Shown: piece by piece, positions 31,544-62,201 of the stretch | Position numbering within the stretch: the stretch's first letter is position 1 | Layout: each line of letters opens with the position of its first letter | Made by a program: the position numbers and the translations under genes | The notes under the pieces: model-generated | What the model was told of the DNA's origin: nothing | What the model saw: the letters and a program-made list of their open reading frames with translations, nothing else | Databases searched by the model: none | Virus record (IMG/VR): IMGVR_UViG_2795385551_000010 | Location: 38,919 to 102,918 of that record | Reading direction: 5' to 3' (one strand) | Length of the DNA: 64,000 nt | DNA from: a virus | Taxonomy: Duplodnaviria; Caudoviricetes

Positions 31544-31565
31544 CAAATGAATATTGTGTGCTAAG

Positions 31566-40448: not shown

Positions 40449-41732
40449 TTACGCCGCATCCTCCAAACTTTCTTCGCCCTTATCAAGCTGCCTAGTTTCG
40501 TGCTCCAAGAAAATAGGCGACTTCGCCTTGTAGATGCGCGGTACCTGTCCCTCAACGCGAACACAGACACCCTCGTCTACAGACAGCGGGTTAGAGAGCG
40601 GAATCGGGGAACTGAACTTATTGGACAGATTCGTATCCAAATAAGCCTCTGTGTACGAACGTGTGATGTTCGGCTCATCCTCGGCAGTCGCGTATTCCTC
40701 GTACCGATGAATAACCGGAACAGTCTTAACGCCGATAGCGGCACAGAACTGCTCCACCCCCTCCCATGACAGATCAGCGATAACGCCCTGACCATTCACG
40801 GTTGCAACCCGGTACACATAAAGCTCGGACTCGCCCGGTCGCAGGTTGTAGGTGTAATCCTTCTGAATCGGCTTCTCGTCATTCTCCCAGCCGATAAGCT
40901 CACCGTAGACGACGAAATTCTCCGGAATCATGCCTTCGAGCTTCCTAGCGTAATCCGCCCAAATGTCCGAATCGTAGAAGTGGTTATTGTCCGACCGGCC
41001 CTTAATGACCCGGCGCGAACCCGCTACGTCCTCAAACGCGGTATCCGGAGTCGGGATGCGCAGCCACTTATTGACCACCACCCGCTCAAGCCAGCCCTTA
41101 TCGCGCACTGCCGGGACGCGGCCAATCCGGATCGACGTGCCGTGAAGCTTCTGCGTGACCACTACCCGCTTAGGCTCCCGGAATGCCTGCCAGTTCCTAA
41201 ACAGGTGCTCGGTGTCCAGGTGCATCGGGAATAGCTTCTGGTCGACGCGCTGCCGGATCTTTGGCTGCCCCGGCACGCCCTGGACCCGCTTGCCCGGTGC
41301 CTCGTACTTACGGCACACCTCATGTCCGTTCAAGGTGTCGAACGTGTCACCCGGCTCCAAGCCGGTTACGTCAATACCCGTGTAGGCCAACGACTCCAAA
41401 GGCATCAACAGCGCATTGGACGGATTCTTGCGTAGCCGGATCGCCTTGACGCGCCGGTTCGGCTCAAGATAGCCCGGCTTAGCTGTCGCGTCCGCGTTCA
41501 ACGTCGGCTCACGGTGCAGATCGTTTAGCCGCGCGTACTCCTCGGACAGCTGGGTCTCCGCGACGAACAGCACCCGCAGATCACCGGCCTTAATGTCGGC
41601 CTTCTGTGTGAGCACCTGATAGCCGAACATCGGCACTGCTACCAGGTTGTCCAGGCCTGGCACGGTCTGCGGCTCTGGCACTCGAACAATCGACGCCGCA
41701 TAATTCACATTCTTAGGTTGTTCAAACTTCAC
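40449..41732 (-). CDS. RNA ligase (Rnl2/DRB0094-like)
   Basis: Motif I TQKLHGTS, VYGELIG, EGVCVR, YKAKS; N-terminal OB-like domain. Confidence 0.85.
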   Translation of the reverse strand: MKFEQPKNVNYAASIVRVPEPQTVPGLDNLVAVPMFGYQVLTQKADIKAGDLRVLFVAETQLSEEYARLNDLHREPTLNADATAKPGYLEPNRRVKAIRLRKNPSNALLMPLESLAYTGIDVTGLEPGDTFDTLNGHEVCRKYEAPGKRVQGVPGQPKIRQRVDQKLFPMHLDTEHLFRNWQAFREPKRVVVTQKLHGTSIRIGRVPAVRDKGWLERVVVNKWLRIPTPDTAFEDVAGSRRVIKGRSDNNHFYDSDIWADYARKLEGMIPENFVVYGELIGWENDEKPIQKDYTYNLRPGESELYVYRVATVNGQGVIADLSWEGVEQFCAAIGVKTVPVIHRYEEYATAEDEPNITRSYTEAYLDTNLSNKFSSPIPLSNPLSVDEGVCVRVEGQVPRIYKAKSPIFLEHETRQLDKGEESLEDAA

Positions 41733-45323: not shown

Positions 45324-46241
45324 TCAGAAGTCCCCCGGCTGAACTTGCAGGCACTTAAGGCCCAAGGCCCGCCACAGGTTCACCACCTGGTCGCGGTCGT
45401 CCAGCACAAACCGGACGTTGTACTTGCCCCGGATGTTCTGGTTGAACAGGTCATACTTCACCCGGTAGTCGGGCAGCTTGTTCCCGTTAGCATCCTTAGC
45501 GCCGGTAGGCCGCATGTACAGGAAGTCGTACCAAATGCCGTTGTTCTCTAGCCATTTAGCGGTTTCCTCCCGGCAGTCATCGTCGCGGCCAGACACGAAC
45601 AGCACGTACACGCCCTGGTTATCCATTGCGTTGACAAGCCATTTGATCTGCTCGTCAACGGTGTCCGTGTGGACCTGCGTGTAGTCGTATGGACTGCGGC
45701 CTGTCATGTGTGCGACCGTGCCGTCAATGTCCACGATGATTGCAGCAGGCAAGTCCTCGACCCATTCGACCGGCTCCGGTGTGAACGTTTCGAGCTGAGT
45801 GACCTTGGGCCAGTTGCCAACCGGATGGCGCTTAGCCATGCGCTCAATCACGTCGGAGCCCACATGGCGCTCACCCCGAGCCTTACGCACCAGATCATTA
45901 GCAGCGCACTTAAGCGGACCCGCCTCGATATCCACAACCTCGAACTCGGCCCCATACTGGGCGGCCAGCTTCGCCCACTTACGCAACCAGCGAGACTCCA
46001 AGTGCGTAGCGTCGACCACCACCGACACACCCGACTTAAGCAGCGCATGAACCTGCGCACGCTCAGCCGTCGTCACCTGCTCCTCACACTCGGCCTTACC
46101 TGTGAAATAGTTGTCGTGCAACATCTTTCGCAGGTCGTCGCGACAGACTCGGACAGCTCCGGTCTCGGCCGCAATTTCCTTAGCCTTAGTGGACTTGCCG
46201 GAGCCGGGGTACCCGCGCATAGCGGTCAGTTTCAGCGCCAT
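45324..46241 (-). CDS. Polynucleotide kinase/phosphatase (T4 Pnk-like)
   Basis: GYPGSGKST...RDDLR kinase plus HAD DIDGT...SGR...DDR phosphatase. Confidence 0.92.
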   Translation of the reverse strand: MALKLTAMRGYPGSGKSTKAKEIAAETGAVRVCRDDLRKMLHDNYFTGKAECEEQVTTAERAQVHALLKSGVSVVVDATHLESRWLRKWAKLAAQYGAEFEVVDIEAGPLKCAANDLVRKARGERHVGSDVIERMAKRHPVGNWPKVTQLETFTPEPVEWVEDLPAAIIVDIDGTVAHMTGRSPYDYTQVHTDTVDEQIKWLVNAMDNQGVYVLFVSGRDDDCREETAKWLENNGIWYDFLYMRPTGAKDANGNKLPDYRVKYDLFNQNIRGKYNVRFVLDDRDQVVNLWRALGLKCLQVQPGDF

Positions 46242-55987: not shown

Positions 55988-56197
55988 TTATTCGGGGGCA
56001 ACCGCCGTTACCCTTGCCCATTGGCTGCCATTAATCGCCGTGTGAACGCAACCGCGCCTCATGGACAAGCTGCCGTTATCGTTGTTCACCAACTCGTCAA
56101 CCACGTACGTTTCCGACTGCCCATCTACGAGCGTGACGACAACCTGAATGCCTTTTTCCTCATCGCCCATCGGGCCACTCCTAAGTTTTTGGGGCAC
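55988..56197 (-). CDS. Small hypothetical protein
   Basis: AGGAG RBS before the internal ATG (MGDEE). Confidence 0.5.
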   Translation of the reverse strand: MPQKLRSGPMGDEEKGIQVVVTLVDGQSETYVVDELVNNDNGSLSMRRGCVHTAINGSQWARVTAVAPE

Positions 56198-56237
56198 AAA
56201 AAAGCCCGGTCAGCACCCCCCAAAGGCTGACCGGGCT
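56198..56237 (-). terminator. Intrinsic terminator closing the DUF2828/RNA-array unit
   Basis: 12-bp perfect stem AGCCCGGTCAGC/GCTGACCGGGCT plus T run. Confidence 0.85.
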
Positions 56238-56248
56238 CGCGGCTTAAC

Positions 56249-56444
56249 GGAGCACCTGTTTTAAACAGTTACCAATTAACAGTTACCTTTAGATTGCTGC
56301 TAGTGTTCCCGACCGCAAAACTGGACCCGTTCTTTCCCATATGCAAGGTAAGTAGTCGCTGTATGGGTCCACAAAGTTTTTAAACTGGGCGCACTCATTT
56401 TTCATTAGAAGTGAAATTTTTGAGTGTGTTGCTGTTCGCGCCCA
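56249..56444 (-). ncRNA. Array of three 50-61 nt stem-bulge RNAs with anticodon-like loops
   Basis: Units 56386-56444, 56322-56371 and 56249-56309; each has a 7-bp closing stem of different sequence plus CAGC(A/G)A. Confidence 0.7.
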
Positions 56445-56485
56445 CAAGCTAAACAATACCGCGTCAGGGGTACACTCCCAAACGA

Positions 56486-57928
56486 TCAGACAACGATCTG
56501 CTGATAACGCGGCCCATTCACGACATCTTGCACCAATTCCGCAGGTGACTTACCTTCCACCGCCATACCGAACACGGTTGGCGACAGACCGGAAACCAAC
56601 GTCACATGCCCATCGTGCGCGAGCGCCGGGTAGTTACTGTTCCGGGCATTCACATTCCAGAACACCACGTGAGGCAGTTCAAGTCCCGCGTCCGCGAACT
56701 CGCGCTTAGCGGCCTCGAAAATCGTCGCAGAAGCACTCGGCTGTCGACCCCACCGGCCAAGCCCGAACGCTGCATCGAATTCCATATCCGACACCACGTA
56801 CAGCGTCTTAGGAACCTCACCCGACCGCTTACCAGCCTCCAAGATGGCGCGGAACGCTGCGAACAGGTCCGTAGAGCCGCACCAGGTGGTCGAATGCTGA
56901 ATCGCATTCATCCGCTCACTGAGCGTCCGGCCGGTCACCTTTTCAAGCTTCGGCGTAGACGAGAACGTCATGAAGTGATCCTTGTACGCGCCCTGGTTGC
57001 GGTCGGCAAAGTAGAGCGCCAGCGACACCGACACCGACATAGGACGGCCCCACATCGACCCGGACACGTCAGCCAGCACGATCCCATCGTTACCGCGCGT
57101 GTAGTCATGCAGATTGGCCCACAAGGCATCTGCCGCCTTCGCCTGGCCCGCGTGAACCATGTCATACAGCTCGTACGGGTACAGCGTGCCCGCATTCACC
57201 TTCGCCTCACCCTTAACGACCGAATCAAGATAAGCCTGATACTCGGCCGGAGTGTTCCGGTAGAACGCCTTAACGTGCGTCTTGTGAGCGCGCGACGGCA
57301 GCTTGCCCCAATCAATCTCTTTCCACCGCTTAGCCGACATGTCGTGCTCAAGCAGCGAGATACGAGACCGCAGACGCGACAACACCTTTCGGTACTTCCG
57401 CTGATCCAAGCCGATAGCCTTACGCAGGTTGATCGCCAGATCCTTACGCGCCTTGGACTTGTCGGATGGCAGCCACTTCGCGAGCAGCGACACCGACTTA
57501 CCCTCGCTAAAGTCCTTGGCGTCCTTAACAAGCTGATCCCCGATGAGCGCGGAGATACCCGGCGTCACATTCGAGCCGTCGTAAAACACGTCATCCCAAC
57601 GGCCGTACTCCGGGATATGCACGAGCAGTGCTTCCGCCGTCGCCGGAGCCATCGCGGCCAGACTGCGGTAGCACTCACGGAACACGGCACGCTCGCCCTG
57701 CCCGCCGCGCACATCACGCAGATAGAACATCGTGCGGACTGCCGTCTGCGGATCTTCCAAGAAAGCCTTCTCGAAAAGCTCTGCCGCCTTCGCAGGGGTA
57801 TCCCGCATAGCACCAGCGGCCGCAAAGTAATCCACCACGGCGTTAAGGCTTGACTTGTTCGTCGCCGCGCCGTTCTCAGTCAGCGTCAGGTTATCCTCAC
57901 GCAGCAGTTCATCTAGAAACGTCGTCAT
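56486..57928 (-). CDS. DUF2828 protein (TROVE/Ro60-like helical domain plus vWA)
   Basis: TENGA, RDVRGGQGER, YGRWDD, AKWLPS; MIDAS DVSGSM, T, SDMEFD; VFWNV. Confidence 0.9.
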   Translation of the reverse strand: MTTFLDELLREDNLTLTENGAATNKSSLNAVVDYFAAAGAMRDTPAKAAELFEKAFLEDPQTAVRTMFYLRDVRGGQGERAVFRECYRSLAAMAPATAEALLVHIPEYGRWDDVFYDGSNVTPGISALIGDQLVKDAKDFSEGKSVSLLAKWLPSDKSKARKDLAINLRKAIGLDQRKYRKVLSRLRSRISLLEHDMSAKRWKEIDWGKLPSRAHKTHVKAFYRNTPAEYQAYLDSVVKGEAKVNAGTLYPYELYDMVHAGQAKAADALWANLHDYTRGNDGIVLADVSGSMWGRPMSVSVSLALYFADRNQGAYKDHFMTFSSTPKLEKVTGRTLSERMNAIQHSTTWCGSTDLFAAFRAILEAGKRSGEVPKTLYVVSDMEFDAAFGLGRWGRQPSASATIFEAAKREFADAGLELPHVVFWNVNARNSNYPALAHDGHVTLVSGLSPTVFGMAVEGKSPAELVQDVVNGPRYQQIVV

Positions 57929-59356: not shown

Positions 59357-59625
59357 TACTTGGAATACCTTTCAGGTAGGGTGATATTTGTTTGTTGCTT
59401 AATTAGGTCGATAGCGCGTTCTGTGACCTTCGCGTCGTACTCCGCTTGCTCGCGCGCCAGCAGTTTCCGGGCATGTTCCTTGCGCTCTTTACGGGACAGG
59501 AACCTAACCGGGTCCACGATTCCCTCAAGAATGTGGATCAGCATGAAACGGTGGACAATGGCGTACACCGAATAGATGACGAACGCCACCACCATCACAA
59601 TTGCGAGCAAGGCTAGAACCCTCAC
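59356..59625 (-). CDS. Small membrane protein
   Basis: N-terminal TM helix; precedes SPFH gene. Confidence 0.6.
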   Translation of the reverse strand: MRVLALLAIVMVVAFVIYSVYAIVHRFMLIHILEGIVDPVRFLSRKERKEHARKLLAREQAEYDAKVTERAIDLIKQQTNITLPERYSK

Positions 59626-60431
59626 GTCTCAACCCCCATGTTGTCCGGCGTAAGGAACATGGTGTTTTCAGCAAGACTCGAATTGTCCCGGTCCAAACCA
59701 AATACCCGCGTAGTCGTTGCATTCGGCCGCAGCAGATCAGCGCGATACTTCACGTGGTAATGCCCGTGAATGAATAAAGCGGGGTCTGTCGCGTCGACAA
59801 TCTCGCGGACAATCGCCCGATGCTCACCGGCCAGAATCAAATCTGGCTCCGGGAAATACTGCCCCTTGGTCTCCGTACCGATGCCCGGAATATCCACGCC
59901 TCGCGGCGCATCGTGGGCAATGATCACGTCCACGTTTCCCGGCCGCGACGCATACTCGACCTGCTCAGGTGAAAGGAACTCCCCCGGCCACCAGTCCACG
60001 CCCTCACGACGCACAATACGGTCCACTGAATGCGCCCCACCCAACGCCATGAACGTCAGGCCCCACCAATCCCAGCGGTACCCACGGGGAAGATGCTGGA
60101 TACGGTCAAAGTCACCGAACATCGTCGGTATGCCGCCCGGCACGTTGCATTCGTCAAGCTGCGAATGATCTTCGTGATTACCGTCGACCCAGAACAACAC
60201 CATGCCGCGCTCCGTAAGCATCTGATTAATGCCCAAGAGGTAAAAGTAGGTGCGCTCACTCGGCGTCCAGAATCCGAAATCGCCCACATGGAGAATCGTG
60301 TTCGCCCCGTTAGCGTCAGCGTGCTTAATTGCCTTAGCGGCCCAGCTAGGATCGCCGTGCCAATCACCGGCAACCATGATTTTGTTTGGATCTTTCAGCA
60401 TATGGTCAACCTCGTTTTCACTACTCCGCAT
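59622..60431 (-). CDS. Calcineurin-like metallophosphoesterase
   Basis: GDWHG, GDFG, GNHE, HDAP, HGHYH. Confidence 0.9.
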   Translation of the reverse strand: MRSSENEVDHMLKDPNKIMVAGDWHGDPSWAAKAIKHADANGANTILHVGDFGFWTPSERTYFYLLGINQMLTERGMVLFWVDGNHEDHSQLDECNVPGGIPTMFGDFDRIQHLPRGYRWDWWGLTFMALGGAHSVDRIVRREGVDWWPGEFLSPEQVEYASRPGNVDVIIAHDAPRGVDIPGIGTETKGQYFPEPDLILAGEHRAIVREIVDATDPALFIHGHYHVKYRADLLRPNATTTRVFGLDRDNSSLAENTMFLTPDNMGVET

Positions 60432-60667: not shown

Positions 60668-60964
60668 TCAAACACTTACATTCCCTTCCCTTAACTCGCG
60701 GCCCCCATATGAACCGCGACGAAAATCCTTTTTCCAGCCTTTGTCATCGCGCCACATAACCGTGACAACGGTTCCATCAGCGGCGACGAGAAGCGATAAC
60801 TTGTCGCGCTTGAAATAACGGCGTCCCGGATGATCACTCGCCTGCTCGACAAGCTCAGGGCTCGTGAGCGTCAACCGCAGTTGGCGGGGGTCGACTTGCA
60901 TATCCAAGGCCCGCGCAAGCGCATGCCTGCTAAACGTAAATCCCTCTGCTAATTTCATGCCCAC
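60668..60964 (-). CDS. DUF4258-like protein (RelE-like fold)
   Basis: FSRHALARA...VVTVM. Confidence 0.55.
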   Translation of the reverse strand: MGMKLAEGFTFSRHALARALDMQVDPRQLRLTLTSPELVEQASDHPGRRYFKRDKLSLLVAADGTVVTVMWRDDKGWKKDFRRGSYGGRELREGNVSV

Positions 60965-61254
60965 GGCCTCCTCACGCGCACTTTCCGAACTGCATTAGCG
61001 GTAACGCCAGGCACGCGCGGATTAGAACAACCGTCACGGCCCTCAAGGATCACGCGGATACCTCGTCGCTTAGCGATTCCAGCTAGAGCGCGTGTGTAGT
61101 CCAGTGGCATTGGCTCACGTCGATCAGGTGGTGTAACGAGCGCCATTGTGAGCCACGAATTGAGCATGCGTTTCTGCTCGGCAGTCATCCCACGGAGAGC
61201 GGGGCCGGTAGGTTTACCAAGATTGATAGCCATTTCACGAACCTCTCTGCGCAT
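60955..61254 (-). CDS. Hypothetical protein
   Basis: ORF downstream of the RNA cluster. Confidence 0.5.
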   Translation of the reverse strand: MRREVREMAINLGKPTGPALRGMTAEQKRMLNSWLTMALVTPPDRREPMPLDYTRALAGIAKRRGIRVILEGRDGCSNPRVPGVTANAVRKVRVRRPWA

Positions 61255-61276
61255 CTAAATGGATTAGATAAGAGCG

Positions 61277-61391
61277 TCAGCCGGGGAGCGGAAGCCCGGT
61301 AGCGTGGAGACTCCGCAATAAGCCCCACCTACAAACAGGCGCATGACCACGAATAGCGCTGTTTCCAATTAGGCTCGCTCTACCCGGCTGA
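61277..61391 (-). ncRNA. Structured RNA candidate
   Basis: Closing stem TCAGCCGGG/CCCGGCTGA plus GAGCG/CGCTC and two internal hairpins. Confidence 0.5.
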
Positions 61392-61395
61392 CTAG

Positions 61396-61495
61396 CTGCG
61401 CGTCGGGAATCGAACCCGAAACACCCTTCACAGTCAGCGACAATCGCAATTGGATAAGTCACTAGGGTGTGGCAGCCAAATACCTGCCTCGCGCA
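61396..61495 (-). ncRNA. tRNA-like RNA with extended non-anticodon arm
   Basis: Acceptor TGCGCG/CGCGCA, D arm GGCAG/CTGCC, T arm TCGGG-TTCGATT-CCCGA. Confidence 0.65.
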
Positions 61496-61498
61496 TCC

Positions 61499-61611
61499 TC
61501 ACAACGGGAACCGGCCATTATCTACCTCCGCGTACAGGTCGGTACGCGAGTCAGGGCTAAGAACCCATACAGGTTCCGCCCATACCATTAGGCTTTATGC
61601 TCCCGTTGTGA
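61499..61611 (-). ncRNA. Structured RNA candidate
   Basis: 11-bp closing stem TCACAACGGGA/TCCCGTTGTGA; internal GAACC/GGTTC and CGCGTAC/GTACGCG hairpins. Confidence 0.5.
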
Positions 61612-61737
61612 AAGCACACAATATTCATTGCGACCTCAACTTGACGGCGAATCGCACGTCCACCCGGACAAAGACACGGGAGCCCCGACAACGGGGATAC
61701 TTCGTATGGTCTGCTGTAAAGTTTTTCGTGGTTGGTA

Positions 61738-61767
61738 GGTCTAGAACTGGTAAAACAGTTCTGTCAA
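61738..61767 (-). promoter_or_regulatory. Promoter with palindromic operator
   Basis: TTGACA-18 bp-TAGACC; spacer is AGAACTG-N6-CAGTTCT. Confidence 0.65.
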
Positions 61768-61859: not shown

Positions 61860-62201
61860 TTATCCCCTATGTAGGGGAACAACCGTAAACTCGTGGGTTT
61901 CGACAATCTCGAAACCAATGGGCTCATCCTCTTCAAACTCGCACGGAAGCAAGTTCACTTCGCACAAGTTGTCGACAATGGCATTGGCAATCATGGACAG
62001 ACTGTCAAAGCTTATGGACGGAAGCCACTGGGTCAGCTCTTCGGTAACGCGGTGGACAACGTATCCGCGCTCTACCGGATCTTCATGCGACCCCGCAATT
62101 TCCTTAATGTCGCTTAGCGTGGTCAACACAGCGGCAAGACGGGCTTCGGTATCCAAGTTCTGAACTACTCGCATTTTCACGGTCCTTACACTTTGTCCCA
62201 C
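61860..62201 (-). CDS. Hypothetical acidic protein
   Basis: ORF in early operon. Confidence 0.55.
   Translation of the reverse strand: MGQSVRTVKMRVVQNLDTEARLAAVLTTLSDIKEIAGSHEDPVERGYVVHRVTEELTQWLPSISFDSLSMIANAIVDNLCEVNLLPCEFEEDEPIGFEIVETHEFTVVPLHRG

What the first reader, a model, noticed from the sequence alone, without database searches (positions are those of the whole stretch)
61277..61767. Promoter-driven ~450 nt cluster of structured, tRNA-like non-coding RNAs
Seen: a consensus TTGACA promoter with a palindromic spacer points into a region with no credible ORF. The region holds three consecutive closed domains. The middle one has an acceptor stem, D arm and canonical TTCGATT T arm, but the anticodon arm is replaced by a long CACCCT/AGGGTG arm with an internal AGTGAC/GTCGCT hairpin. 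The two flanking domains share a D-loop-like AGCCTAAT(T)GG. Established: bacterial YrlA Y RNAs are tRNA mimics, and phages carry large structured ncRNAs. Inference: these are processed tRNA mimics, possibly further ligands of the DUF2828 protein 3.4 kb downstream, or a regulatory/antitermination leader.
Basis: partly seen in the sequence, partly recalled or inferred. Interest (0 to 1): 0.72.

Follow-up and report, generated by a model that had tools for sequence, protein, structure and literature searches.

The report
Phage tRNA-like antisense RNA locus
A 490-base gene-free stretch in the early operon of this mycobacteriophage encodes a conserved four-part folded RNA, one part shaped like a tRNA, and a single-stranded linker in it is the exact antisense of a site 30 kb away in the phage's own tRNA gene array, so it is probably an undescribed phage RNA regulator and probably not a partner of the nearby Ro-like protein.

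Summary
On the minus strand, 61767-61276 is non-coding and folds into closed domains supported by compensatory changes. There are four domains, not three. B has an acceptor stem, a D arm and a canonical UUCGAUU T arm, with a long variable arm where the anticodon arm should be. ARAGORN and Rfam do not call it a tRNA, tmRNA or YrlA. The locus occurs in all 95 Lclasvirinae (cluster L) phage records and nowhere else that I searched.

The linker 61629-61613 is perfectly complementary over 17 nt to 31562-31546, 2 nt after phage tRNA-Ala. All 13 related genomes tested have the same relation (17-28 bp, four co-varying versions). In most of them the duplex ends at the ribosome-binding site of a DUF4417 "nuclease" gene.

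The DUF2828 protein does fold like Ro60. However, its cognate RNAs are "ACAGCAA-handle" hairpins that abut the gene (56442-56323), and the focal RNA lacks that handle.

Best reading: an early, RNase P-processable, trans-acting antisense RNA. The promoter is plausible but unproven.

The parts
61738..61767 (-). Promoter-like site: -35 TTGACA (61767-62), an 18-nt spacer made of the palindrome AGAACTG-N6-CAGTTCT, and a weak -10-like TAGACC (61743-38).
   Evidence: The layout (TGAC-type hexamer, a co-varying palindrome, then a T-start hexamer) keeps its position in relatives. The hexamers are not conserved, the scan calls no promoter, and the palindrome occurs only once in the window.
61630..61714 (-). 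Domain 0, a 4-way junction. Closing stem GCAGACC/GGUCGC, an invariant UACGAAGUA at the junction, and three hairpins (61696-83, 61682-61, 61660-43).
   Evidence: Found in every Lclasvirinae-type locus. 94.7% of cells are paired, against 88% in shuffles and about 40% when partners are slid. Seven pairs show double changes. Covariance model R1 scores 82-116 bits.
61613..61629 (-). Antisense arm: the linker AAUGAAUAUUGUGUGCU between domain 0 and domain A.
   Evidence: It is a perfect 17-nt complement of 31562-31546 on the same transcribed strand and the longest dispersed inverted repeat in the window. It co-varies with its target in 13 genomes.
61500..61610 (-). Domain A. A 12-bp closing stem (CACAACGGGAGC/GGUUCCCGUUGUG) encloses two covarying hairpins and the conserved strings GUAUGGG, UGAC and GAGGUAGA.
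   Evidence: The closing stem changes AACG/CGUU to UGUU/AACA in relatives. The core can be aligned with L013 and L017. The domain is reduced to about 50 nt in L2-type phages.
61395..61496 (-). Domain B, a tRNA-like module: acceptor stem (A.G plus 6 bp), D arm, a long variable arm in place of the anticodon arm, T arm with UUCGAUU, discriminator C, and no encoded CCA.
   Evidence: Length is 94-108 nt in all lineages. There are three acceptor versions and seven T-stem versions, and all pair. ARAGORN finds nothing at default or 90% thresholds. Rfam tRNA, tmRNA and C4 give no hit.
61276..61392 (-). Domain C, a branched hairpin. Its basal stem of 10+5+5 bp is followed by a pyrimidine-rich tail (61275-61262). 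The Shine-Dalgarno sequence and ATG (61254) of the next gene follow.
   Evidence: The basal stem is 10-11 bp in all 12 lineages in five sequence versions. Its 5' strand resembles a tRNA D arm in this lineage only.
31546..31562 (-). Distal target of the antisense arm: AGCACACAAUAUUCAUU. It lies 2 nt after the 3' end of phage tRNA-Ala(UGC), at the start of a 198-nt structured spacer before tRNA-Cys.
   Evidence: In relatives the target lies 2-8 nt (or 92-214 nt) after a tRNA. In L1/L2/L3-type phages it lies directly before the SD of a DUF4417 gene.

Best explanation
The locus is a non-coding, multi-domain structured RNA of the phage's early rightward operon, specific to Lclasvirinae (cluster L) mycobacteriophages, and I read it as a trans-acting antisense regulator built on a tRNA-like scaffold.

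Shown:
- Four covariation-supported domains.
- A tRNA-like module that keeps the acceptor/T-arm minihelix.
- A linker that is complementary to a site 27-31 kb downstream on the same transcribed strand, inside the phage tRNA array. In most relatives the complementarity also covers the 3' strand of domain 0's closing stem. Arm and target co-vary.

Inferred:
- The RNA is made early, either from the cro-side early promoter or from a promoter of its own.
- RNase P cuts at the 5' end of module B, and 3' trimming or CCA addition follows. This would release a stable 5' RNA of about 220-250 nt (domain 0, antisense arm, A), the tRNA-like B, and C.
- C caps the 5' end of the downstream mRNA or acts as a leaky terminator.
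- The free arm pairs with the tRNA-array transcript just 3' of a tRNA. In L1-L3-type phages the 23-28-bp duplex abuts the Shine-Dalgarno sequence of a DUF4417 'nuclease' gene. That would block translation initiation or create an RNase III site.
- In this window's lineage that gene is absent from the site. The duplex would instead affect 3' maturation of tRNA-Ala or processing of the structured spacer that follows.
For: - Non-coding.
- Structure and covariation.
- Clade-wide presence: 93 M. smegmatis cluster L records plus Aegeus and Baudelaire.
- Sense-strand specificity: many G.U pairs.
- Antisense relation in this window: 17 nt exact, and the only inverted repeat of 17 nt or more in 64 kb.
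- Antisense relation in relatives: present in 13 of 13 related genomes at a syntenic distance, 17-28 contiguous bp, in four sequence versions that change together.
- All differences in window-lineage targets are A-to-G, which gives G.U pairs.
- In L017-type phages one position of the closing stem's 3' strand pairs with the target but not with its own 5' strand.
- Target position next to a tRNA 3' end and next to the SD of a DUF4417/phrog_940 gene.
- Transcription: Crossroads early rightward RNA covers genes 41-48, and the locus lies between 45 and 46.
- Precedent, from memory: the C4 antisense RNA of P1/P7 is matured by RNase P.
Against: - No RNA ends, abundance or processing data were available to me.
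- Both partners being transcribed at the same time is inferred only from an operon-level statement in one paper.
- The gene next to the target differs between lineages. The DUF4417 gene is missing at the site in this window and in L015/L016-type phages, so the regulated object is unclear.
- An inverted repeat that co-varies could also be kept at the DNA level.
- About 450 nt of conserved structure, including the invariant UACGAAGUA, is more than an antisense arm needs, so part of the function is unexplained.
- B has an A.G mismatch at 1:72 here and lacks U8 and A14, so RNase P recognition is not certain.
Confidence: 0.55

Rival explanations
1. The RNAs are Y-RNA-like ligands of the DUF2828 Ro-like protein encoded 3.4 kb downstream (or of the host Rsr). 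Domain 0 would bind through its CGAA-containing junction, and B would provide the tRNA-mimic module as in YrlA.
For: - The DUF2828 model matches full-length Ro60 (TM 0.60-0.63 to 1yvr and 9nfa; phage phiLo Ro60 9l5y and 9kop).
- Same strand, 3.4 kb upstream of the gene.
- The invariant UACGAAG sits at the top of a terminal stem and is a near-match to GNCGAAN0-1G.
- A tRNA-like module is present.
- The phage records with the RNA and those with the protein coincide, 95 and 95.
- This lineage's handle-bearing array next to the gene lacks the tRNA-like core that relatives have.
Against: - Cognate RNAs of DUF2828 proteins carry an ACAGCAA-type handle and abut the gene in mycobacterial, staphylococcal and many metagenomic loci. 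154 of 431 units lie within 500 nt upstream of the gene. The focal RNA has no such unit.
- Domain 0 is absent from the closest DUF2828 loci outside cluster L: L014 (60% identity), L035 (55%), L036, L041, L025.
- The co-occurrence is explained by common descent.
- The YrlA score is 21 bits against a gathering score of 69, and the hit spans two separate domains.
- A Crossroads stock that has lost the Ro-like gene but keeps the locus is viable.
Confidence: 0.12
2. The locus is purely a cis-acting leader. It would work as a processing and stability cassette or an attenuator/antiterminator for the downstream early genes, with the tRNA-like module serving only as an RNase P punctuation site and C as a 5' protective hairpin or leaky terminator. 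On this view the distal complementarity would have no function.
For: - Position inside the early operon, just after cro, xis and gp46.
- C ends 10-20 nt before the SD of a conserved downstream gene in every lineage.
- The GC-rich basal stem is followed by a U/C-rich tail.
- No independent promoter is confirmed.
Against: - It does not explain the co-varying 17-28-nt complementarity to a site 30 kb away.
- It does not explain the strongly conserved domain 0.
- Known processive antiterminator RNAs (put, EAR) gave no Rfam match.
Confidence: 0.15
3. The feature is a DNA-level element. The two co-varying inverted repeats would be recombination or replication sites, with the folds incidental. Alternatively the stretch is decayed tRNA genes with no present function, or a set of tiny protein genes as annotated in Aegeus.
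For: - Inverted repeats kept identical could reflect site-specific recombination or gene conversion.
- The 5' strand of C looks like a decayed D arm.
- GenBank annotators called five small ORFs here.
Against: - Pairing relies on many G.U pairs that exist only on the transcribed strand.
- Compensatory changes occur throughout four domains.
- All sequenced relatives are collinear, so there is no sign of a 30-kb inversion.
- The ORFs are not conserved and the indels break reading frames.
Confidence: 0.08

Closest known systems
C4 antisense RNA of phages P1 and P7 (immI operon). Properties recalled from memory; the Rfam C4 family is covered by the scan.
   Same: It is a phage-encoded antisense RNA cut out of a longer early or immunity transcript with the help of RNase P, through a tRNA-like acceptor feature. 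It pairs with the leader of a phage gene close to its ribosome-binding site.
   Different: C4 is about 77 nt and its targets lie in the same operon. Here the RNA locus is about 490 nt with four domains and the target is 27-31 kb away in a tRNA array. There is no sequence or Rfam similarity. RNase P processing is only inferred here.
YrlA/YrlB bacterial and phage Y RNAs bound by Rsr/Ro60 (Chen et al. 2014, PMC4201824; Rfam RF02553)
   Same: A tRNA-mimicking module with a canonical T arm, encoded on the same strand within about 4 kb of a Ro60-shaped protein gene. A CGAA-containing motif sits at the top of a terminal stem.
   Different: In YrlA the tRNA-like core is permuted (T arm, acceptor hairpin, D arm) and sits inside the protein-binding stem. 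B has normal tRNA topology and its own open acceptor stem. The score is 21 bits against a gathering score of 69. The first base of the motif differs (U instead of G). DUF2828-type proteins have a different handle (ACAGCAA), and the true YrlA-like units lie downstream of the gene.
tmRNA
   Same: An acceptor stem plus T arm with a long helix in place of the anticodon arm. It is phage-encoded in some actinophages (L025 has one next to its DUF2828 gene).
   Different: B is only about 102 nt, with a closed arm, no pseudoknots, no tag reading frame and no G3.U70. ARAGORN and Rfam tmRNA are negative.
GOLLD and ROOL large ornate phage-associated RNAs (recalled from memory; both are Rfam families)
   Same: Large, highly structured, protein-free-looking RNAs carried by (pro)phages, often beside or containing tRNA(-like) elements, with a variable part and a conserved part.
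   Different: No Rfam match. The RNA is smaller and restricted to one actinophage subfamily. It has an explicit antisense arm, which is not reported for GOLLD or ROOL.
Unpublished notes of this scan: tRNA-shaped scaffolds in early-operon leaders of prophages, and a mycobacterial prophage tRNA-like antisense locus (e1-5852973)
   Same: A gene-free early-operon stretch with a tRNA-shaped middle part, an expanded interior, and a single-stranded segment antisense to a site about 31 kb away.
   Different: Those are AI notes on other genomes. Here the target is a tRNA trailer/spacer and not a protein-gene leader. I also show four co-varying versions across 13 genomes.

Membership tests
tRNA (RF00005) | Cloverleaf with a 5-bp anticodon stem and 7-nt loop, recognised by ARAGORN or the Rfam tRNA model | tested here: not met
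   ARAGORN gives nothing at default or 90% thresholds, with introns allowed. Only spurious calls appear at 80%. There is no Rfam tRNA hit at E<=10. The anticodon arm is replaced by a 45-60-nt variable arm.
tRNA (RF00005) | 7-bp acceptor stem stacked on a 5-bp T stem with a UUCRANY T loop and G53-C61 | tested here: met
   The acceptor stem has 6-7 bp and the T stem has 5 bp in all 12 lineages, and both co-vary. The T loop UUCGAUU is invariant, except UUCAAUU in L011.
YrlA Y RNA (RF02553) | Score at or above the Rfam gathering threshold, with the order T arm, acceptor-like hairpin, D arm inside a terminal stem | tested here: not met
   The score is 21.1 bits against 69, E=0.13, with the acceptor hairpin deleted. 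The hit joins the T arm of B to the 5' strand of C.
YrlA Y RNA (RF02553) | GNCGAAN0-1G motif near the 5' end (Chen 2014) | tested here: inconclusive
   UACGAAG is invariant in 10 of 11 aligned sequences but has U in place of the first G, and it sits in domain 0, not in the tRNA-like module.
YrlA Y RNA (RF02553) | Encoded within 4 kb of, and on the same strand as, a Ro60 orthologue, and bound by it | tested here: inconclusive
   The locus is on the same strand, 3.4 kb away here and 4.7 kb away in L2-type phages. The protein is DUF2828, not TROVE, by sequence, though Ro60-like by fold. Binding cannot be tested with these tools.
DUF2828-associated 'ACAGCAA-handle' RNA units (undescribed; notes of this scan) | A closing stem followed within 1-5 nt by (A)CAGC(A/G)A on the 5' strand, in tandem arrays that abut the DUF2828 gene | tested here: not met
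   No such unit lies in 61276-61767. Units are present at 56442-56388 and 56370-56323, right after the gene.
tmRNA (RF00023) | tRNA-like domain plus pseudoknots and a tag reading frame | tested here: not met
   ARAGORN -m finds no tmRNA at default thresholds. Rfam gives no hit.
C4-type phage antisense RNA | Complementarity to a phage mRNA leader, conserved with its target | tested here: met
   17-28 contiguous bp in 13 of 13 genomes, in four co-varying versions. The duplex lies adjacent to an SD in L1-L3-type phages.
C4-type phage antisense RNA | Sequence or structure homology to the Rfam C4 family, and maturation by RNase P | tested here: not met
   No Rfam hit of any family except the weak YrlA hit. 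RNase P cleavage cannot be tested with these tools.

The most novel reading that the evidence does not exclude
All cluster L mycobacteriophages carry a previously unannotated riboregulator of about 490 nt. It joins a tRNA-shaped RNase P/CCA processing module to an antisense arm aimed at the phage's own tRNA array. It may time the expression of a DUF4417 nuclease or the maturation of phage tRNAs, and it may work together with the phage's RNA-repair set (Ro-like protein, PNKP, RNA ligase). This would be a new class of phage regulatory RNA in a host group that lacks Hfq.
Probability: 0.35. Interest if true: 0.8.

Novelty: new variant of a known kind. Interest (0 to 1): 0.66.

Why it matters
- Cluster L phages are widely used teaching and research phages. 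This region is either left blank or filled with implausible 22-44-aa ORFs in about 95 GenBank records, so annotation can be corrected.
- Regulatory RNAs of mycobacteriophages are almost unknown, and mycobacteria lack Hfq. A structured, tRNA-scaffolded antisense RNA with a clear, co-varying target gives a directly testable model of RNA-based timing in these phages.
- It may also show how phage tRNA arrays are processed.
- The work separates this RNA from the Ro-like protein's real partner RNAs. This sharpens the emerging picture of a DUF2828-type Ro/Y-RNA system in phages.

Tried and rejected
- Known RNA families. Rfam at gathering thresholds on the window gave tRNAs only. Rfam at E<=10 on 60.9-62.1 kb gave only a weak YrlA hit and chance hits. 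No tRNA, tmRNA, C4, GOLLD, ROOL, riboswitch or ribozyme was found.
- ARAGORN with introns and relaxed thresholds gave nothing credible.
- Intron-containing tRNA was rejected. The putative anticodon differs between relatives, and bacterial tRNA introns are group I.
- attP core was rejected. The locus is internal and about 3 kb from the integrase, and the integrase-proximal gap is elsewhere.
- Operator repeats: the palindrome occurs once in the window.
- Coding was rejected.
- Domain 0 outside the clade. A covariance model (R1) and an exact-pattern scan of IMG/VR found it only in cluster-L-like contigs.
- PDB sequence search with the DUF2828 protein gave nothing. The fold search did give matches.
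- Pfam and PHROGs on the flanking small genes gave no function.
- Literature searches found no description of this RNA or of DUF2828 partner RNAs. The supplements of Chen 2014 and the Sim 2020 review were not available.
- Other complementarities of the focal RNA within the window did not exceed chance (12 nt or less).

Full report
**Context**

The window is part of an IMG/VR provirus. It is 99% identical to Mycobacterium phages Aegeus and Baudelaire (host M. chelonae; Vilmaviridae, Lclasvirinae, i.e. cluster-L-like).

The feature lies on the minus strand. Reading along that strand, the gene order is: immunity repressor (opposite strand), cro, excise, gp46 (61860-62201), the focal stretch, gp52 (60955-61254), a BrnT-like toxin, a metallophosphoesterase, a Band-7 protein, and the DUF2828+DUF7788 'Ro-like RNA binding protein' (56486-57928). 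Further downstream on the same strand are a PNKP kinase-phosphatase, an RNA ligase and 18 tRNA genes at 31.1-34.6 kb.

**Checking the observation**

- TTGACA at 61767-62.
- An 18-nt spacer that is a perfect palindrome.
- A weak TAGACC.
- Closed domains downstream of these.

The stretch is non-coding. The five ORFs of 22-44 aa annotated in Aegeus are not conserved. Most indels between lineages are not multiples of three, and substitutions show no codon periodicity. In Faith1 the homologous 473 nt are left unannotated.

The minimum-free-energy fold of 516 nt has z = -3.9. Seven IMG/VR proviruses carry the whole stretch at 76-80% identity. On that alignment RNAalifold keeps 143 pairs, 22 of them through changes on both sides. 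Examples are A's closing stem (AACG/CGUU to UGUU/AACA), B's T stem (UCGGG/CCCGA to CCGAG/CUCGG) and C's basal stem (A-U to G-C).

**Anatomy, revised: four domains**

It is the most widely conserved part and is present in every Lclasvirinae-type locus.
- It is a 4-way junction with a 7-bp closing stem, a short second helix and three hairpins.
- 94.7% of cells are paired, against about 40% when the partners are slid. Seven pairs show double changes.
- It has an invariant UACGAAGUA at the junction.

The more distant cluster L phages keep the same order of parts:
- Domain 0.
- A variable A, about 50 nt in L2-type phages and about 110 nt elsewhere, with the conserved strings GUAUGGG, UGAC and GAGGUAGA.
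- A tRNA-like B.
- A branched hairpin C, directly followed by the start of a conserved small gene.

B is 94-108 nt in all lineages:
- Its acceptor stem occurs in three sequence versions and its T stem in seven, and all of them pair.
- The T loop UUCGAUU is invariant but for one genome (UUCAAUU in L011).
- A GG-containing D loop is always present.
- The anticodon arm is replaced by a variable arm of 45-60 nt.

B is not a decoding tRNA and not a tmRNA. The D-arm-like 5' strand of C evolves as one strand of C's long stem, not as a D arm.

**Distribution**

BLASTN finds the locus in 93 M. smegmatis cluster L phage records, plus Aegeus and Baudelaire. That equals the 95 Mycobacterium phage records that carry the DUF2828 gene. 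An exact-pattern scan of IMG/VR finds domain 0 only in such contigs.

**Is it a ligand of the Ro-like protein?**

The protein is Ro60-shaped. An AlphaFold model (pLDDT 82) aligns over its full length with Xenopus and human Ro60 and with Thermus phage phiLo Ro60 (TM 0.5-0.63).

Its cognate RNAs, however, look different. Directly after the gene, in this window (56442-56388 and 56370-56323) and in all relatives, lie tandem hairpin units. Each unit has a closing stem followed within a few bases by ACAGCAA.
- In L1/L2/L3-type phages the middle unit holds a complete YrlA-type tRNA-like core (Rfam YrlA 21.6 bits).
- In L014 that core scores 47 bits.
- The same units flank DUF2828 genes in a staphylococcal phage and in metagenomic phages.
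- In 80 bacterial or MAG loci, 154 of 431 units fall in the 500 nt before the gene, against 3-14 per 500-nt bin elsewhere.
- Other agents of this scan reached the same conclusion independently.

The focal RNA has no such unit. Domain 0 is absent from the nearest DUF2828 loci outside cluster L. The single weak YrlA hit in the focal stretch (21 bits) joins B's T arm to the start of C. Chen et al. describe this kind of false positive for tandem tRNAs. A Crossroads laboratory stock that lacks genes 49-58, including the Ro-like gene, still grows. I therefore give the Ro-ligand reading about 0.12. The near-match of UACGAAG to the Rsr motif keeps it alive, possibly with the host Rsr as the partner.

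**The functional clue: antisense complementarity**

In this window, the linker between domain 0 and A (61629-61613) is invariant in this lineage. It is a perfect 17-nt complement of 31562-31546 on the same transcribed strand. That site lies 2 nt after the 3' end of phage tRNA-Ala, at the start of a 198-nt structured spacer before tRNA-Cys. It is the longest dispersed inverted repeat in the 64-kb window.

The same relation holds in all 13 related genomes tested. The target lies 27-31 kb downstream, with 17-28 contiguous base pairs, in four different sequence versions that change together.
- In the window-lineage relatives, every difference in the target is A-to-G, which keeps a G.U pair with the arm.
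- In L1, L2 and L3-type phages the duplex also covers the 3' strand of domain 0's closing stem. It ends exactly at the Shine-Dalgarno sequence of a DUF4417 (phrog_940 'nuclease') gene.
- In L017-type phages one position of the closing stem's 3' strand pairs with the target but not with domain 0's own 5' strand.

In several lineages, including this window, no gene follows the target. The constant feature is a site inside the tRNA-array transcript, mostly 2-8 nt after a tRNA.

**Transcription**

Gentile et al. (PMC6426596) report that early rightward transcription in Crossroads runs from just upstream of gene 41 through gene 48. A second rightward early transcript covers genes 59-118. The locus lies between genes 45 and 46. 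The target near 65 kb should lie in the second transcript, but that is my inference.

Its -35 is consensus here but not in relatives, the -10 is poor, and the scan calls nothing. The layout (TGAC-type hexamer, co-varying palindrome, T-start hexamer) does keep its position, so a regulated internal promoter remains possible.

**Most likely mechanism**

Shown:
- A conserved structured RNA with a tRNA-like module.
- A co-varying antisense arm.

Inferred:
- RNase P cuts at B's 5' end and 3' maturation follows. This would release a stable RNA carrying domain 0, the arm and A.
- The arm pairs with the tRNA-array transcript. In most relatives this would repress or trigger cleavage of the DUF4417 message.
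- In this phage it would instead affect tRNA-Ala 3' maturation or processing of the structured spacer.
- C stabilises the downstream mRNA or acts as a leaky terminator.

The role of domain 0's invariant junction and of domain A is unexplained.

**Comparison with known systems**

The closest working analogue is the RNase P-matured C4 antisense RNA of P1/P7 (properties recalled from memory). There is no homology to it or to any Rfam family. The focal RNA resembles Y RNAs and tmRNA only in containing a T arm and acceptor helix.

**Verdict**

This is a real, conserved and apparently undescribed phage RNA. It is a new variant of known kinds (tRNA-scaffolded or processed phage antisense RNA). Its link to the Ro-like protein is doubtful.

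Noticed in passing
window 56195-56486 (-): About 290 nt of non-coding sequence lie right after the DUF2828 Ro-like gene. There are two clear hairpin units with the 'ACAGCAA handle' (56442-56388 GGCGCG-AA-CAGCAAC...UGCGCC; 56370-56323 GGACCC-AUA-CAGCGAC...GGGUCC) and a probable third near 56306-56246. A strong intrinsic terminator follows at 56235-56195. The region is conserved and co-varies across cluster L. These units are probably the protein's real partner RNAs.
   Followed up: partly
L009:9533-9663, L013:9528-9649, L015:9530-9658, L017:9587-9720, L014:8106-8213, L025:9610-9722: In other cluster L phages and in L014 and L025, one handle-bearing unit after the DUF2828 gene holds a full YrlA-type tRNA-like core (V hairpin, T arm, acceptor-like hairpin, D arm). 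Scores are below the Rfam gathering threshold (21.6 and 47.2 bits). In this window's lineage that unit is only 48-50 nt and the core is missing.
   Followed up: partly
80 GTDB loci L034-L113; L019, L033, L041: Stem-plus-CAGC(A/G)A units pile up next to DUF2828 genes. There are 154 units in the 500 nt upstream, 43 in the next 500 nt upstream, and 42 in the 500 nt downstream, against 3-14 per bin elsewhere. A Staphylococcus phage has three units after the gene.
   Followed up: partly
window 31545-31367 (-): The 198-nt gap between tRNA-Ala and tRNA-Cys is GC-rich and looks like two closed structured modules (GGAGGGUA...UACCCUCC; GGCGAG-UAAUC...GAUUA-CUCUG-CUCGCC, with a GGGUUUCGAUUAC T-loop-like stretch). 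ARAGORN does not call them and Aegeus leaves the gap unannotated.
   Followed up: no
L031 (E. coli typing phage 1), L032 (Listeria phage LMSP-25), L020-L022, L024, L026, L025: DUF2828 genes sit directly beside tRNA arrays in unrelated phages. In Felixounavirus the gene is 165 nt before a 19-tRNA array. In the Listeria phage it follows the array, with an RtcB 'tRNA splicing ligase' and a phosphohydrolase 0.6-1.3 kb downstream. L025 has a tmRNA about 100 nt upstream on the opposite strand.
   Followed up: partly
window 40449-41732 (-), 45324-46241 (-), 59622-60431 (-): The phage carries an RNA-repair-type gene set on the same strand as the Ro-like gene and the tRNA array: an RNA ligase, a PNKP kinase plus HAD phosphatase, and a metallophosphoesterase. 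A NAPRTase and a PRTase are also present.
   Followed up: no
L166:1534-2223 (Crossroads, about 65.04-65.73 kb): In L1-L3-type phages the gene directly behind the antisense target encodes a DUF4417 protein (Pfam E=3e-60; phrog_940 'nuclease'). It is missing at this position in the window's lineage.
   Followed up: partly
window 60668-61254 (-): The first genes after the RNA locus are a conserved 99-aa protein of unknown function (phrog_5916) and, overlapping its end, a DUF4258/BrnT-like toxin homologue. No antitoxin is recognisable by the searches run.
   Followed up: no
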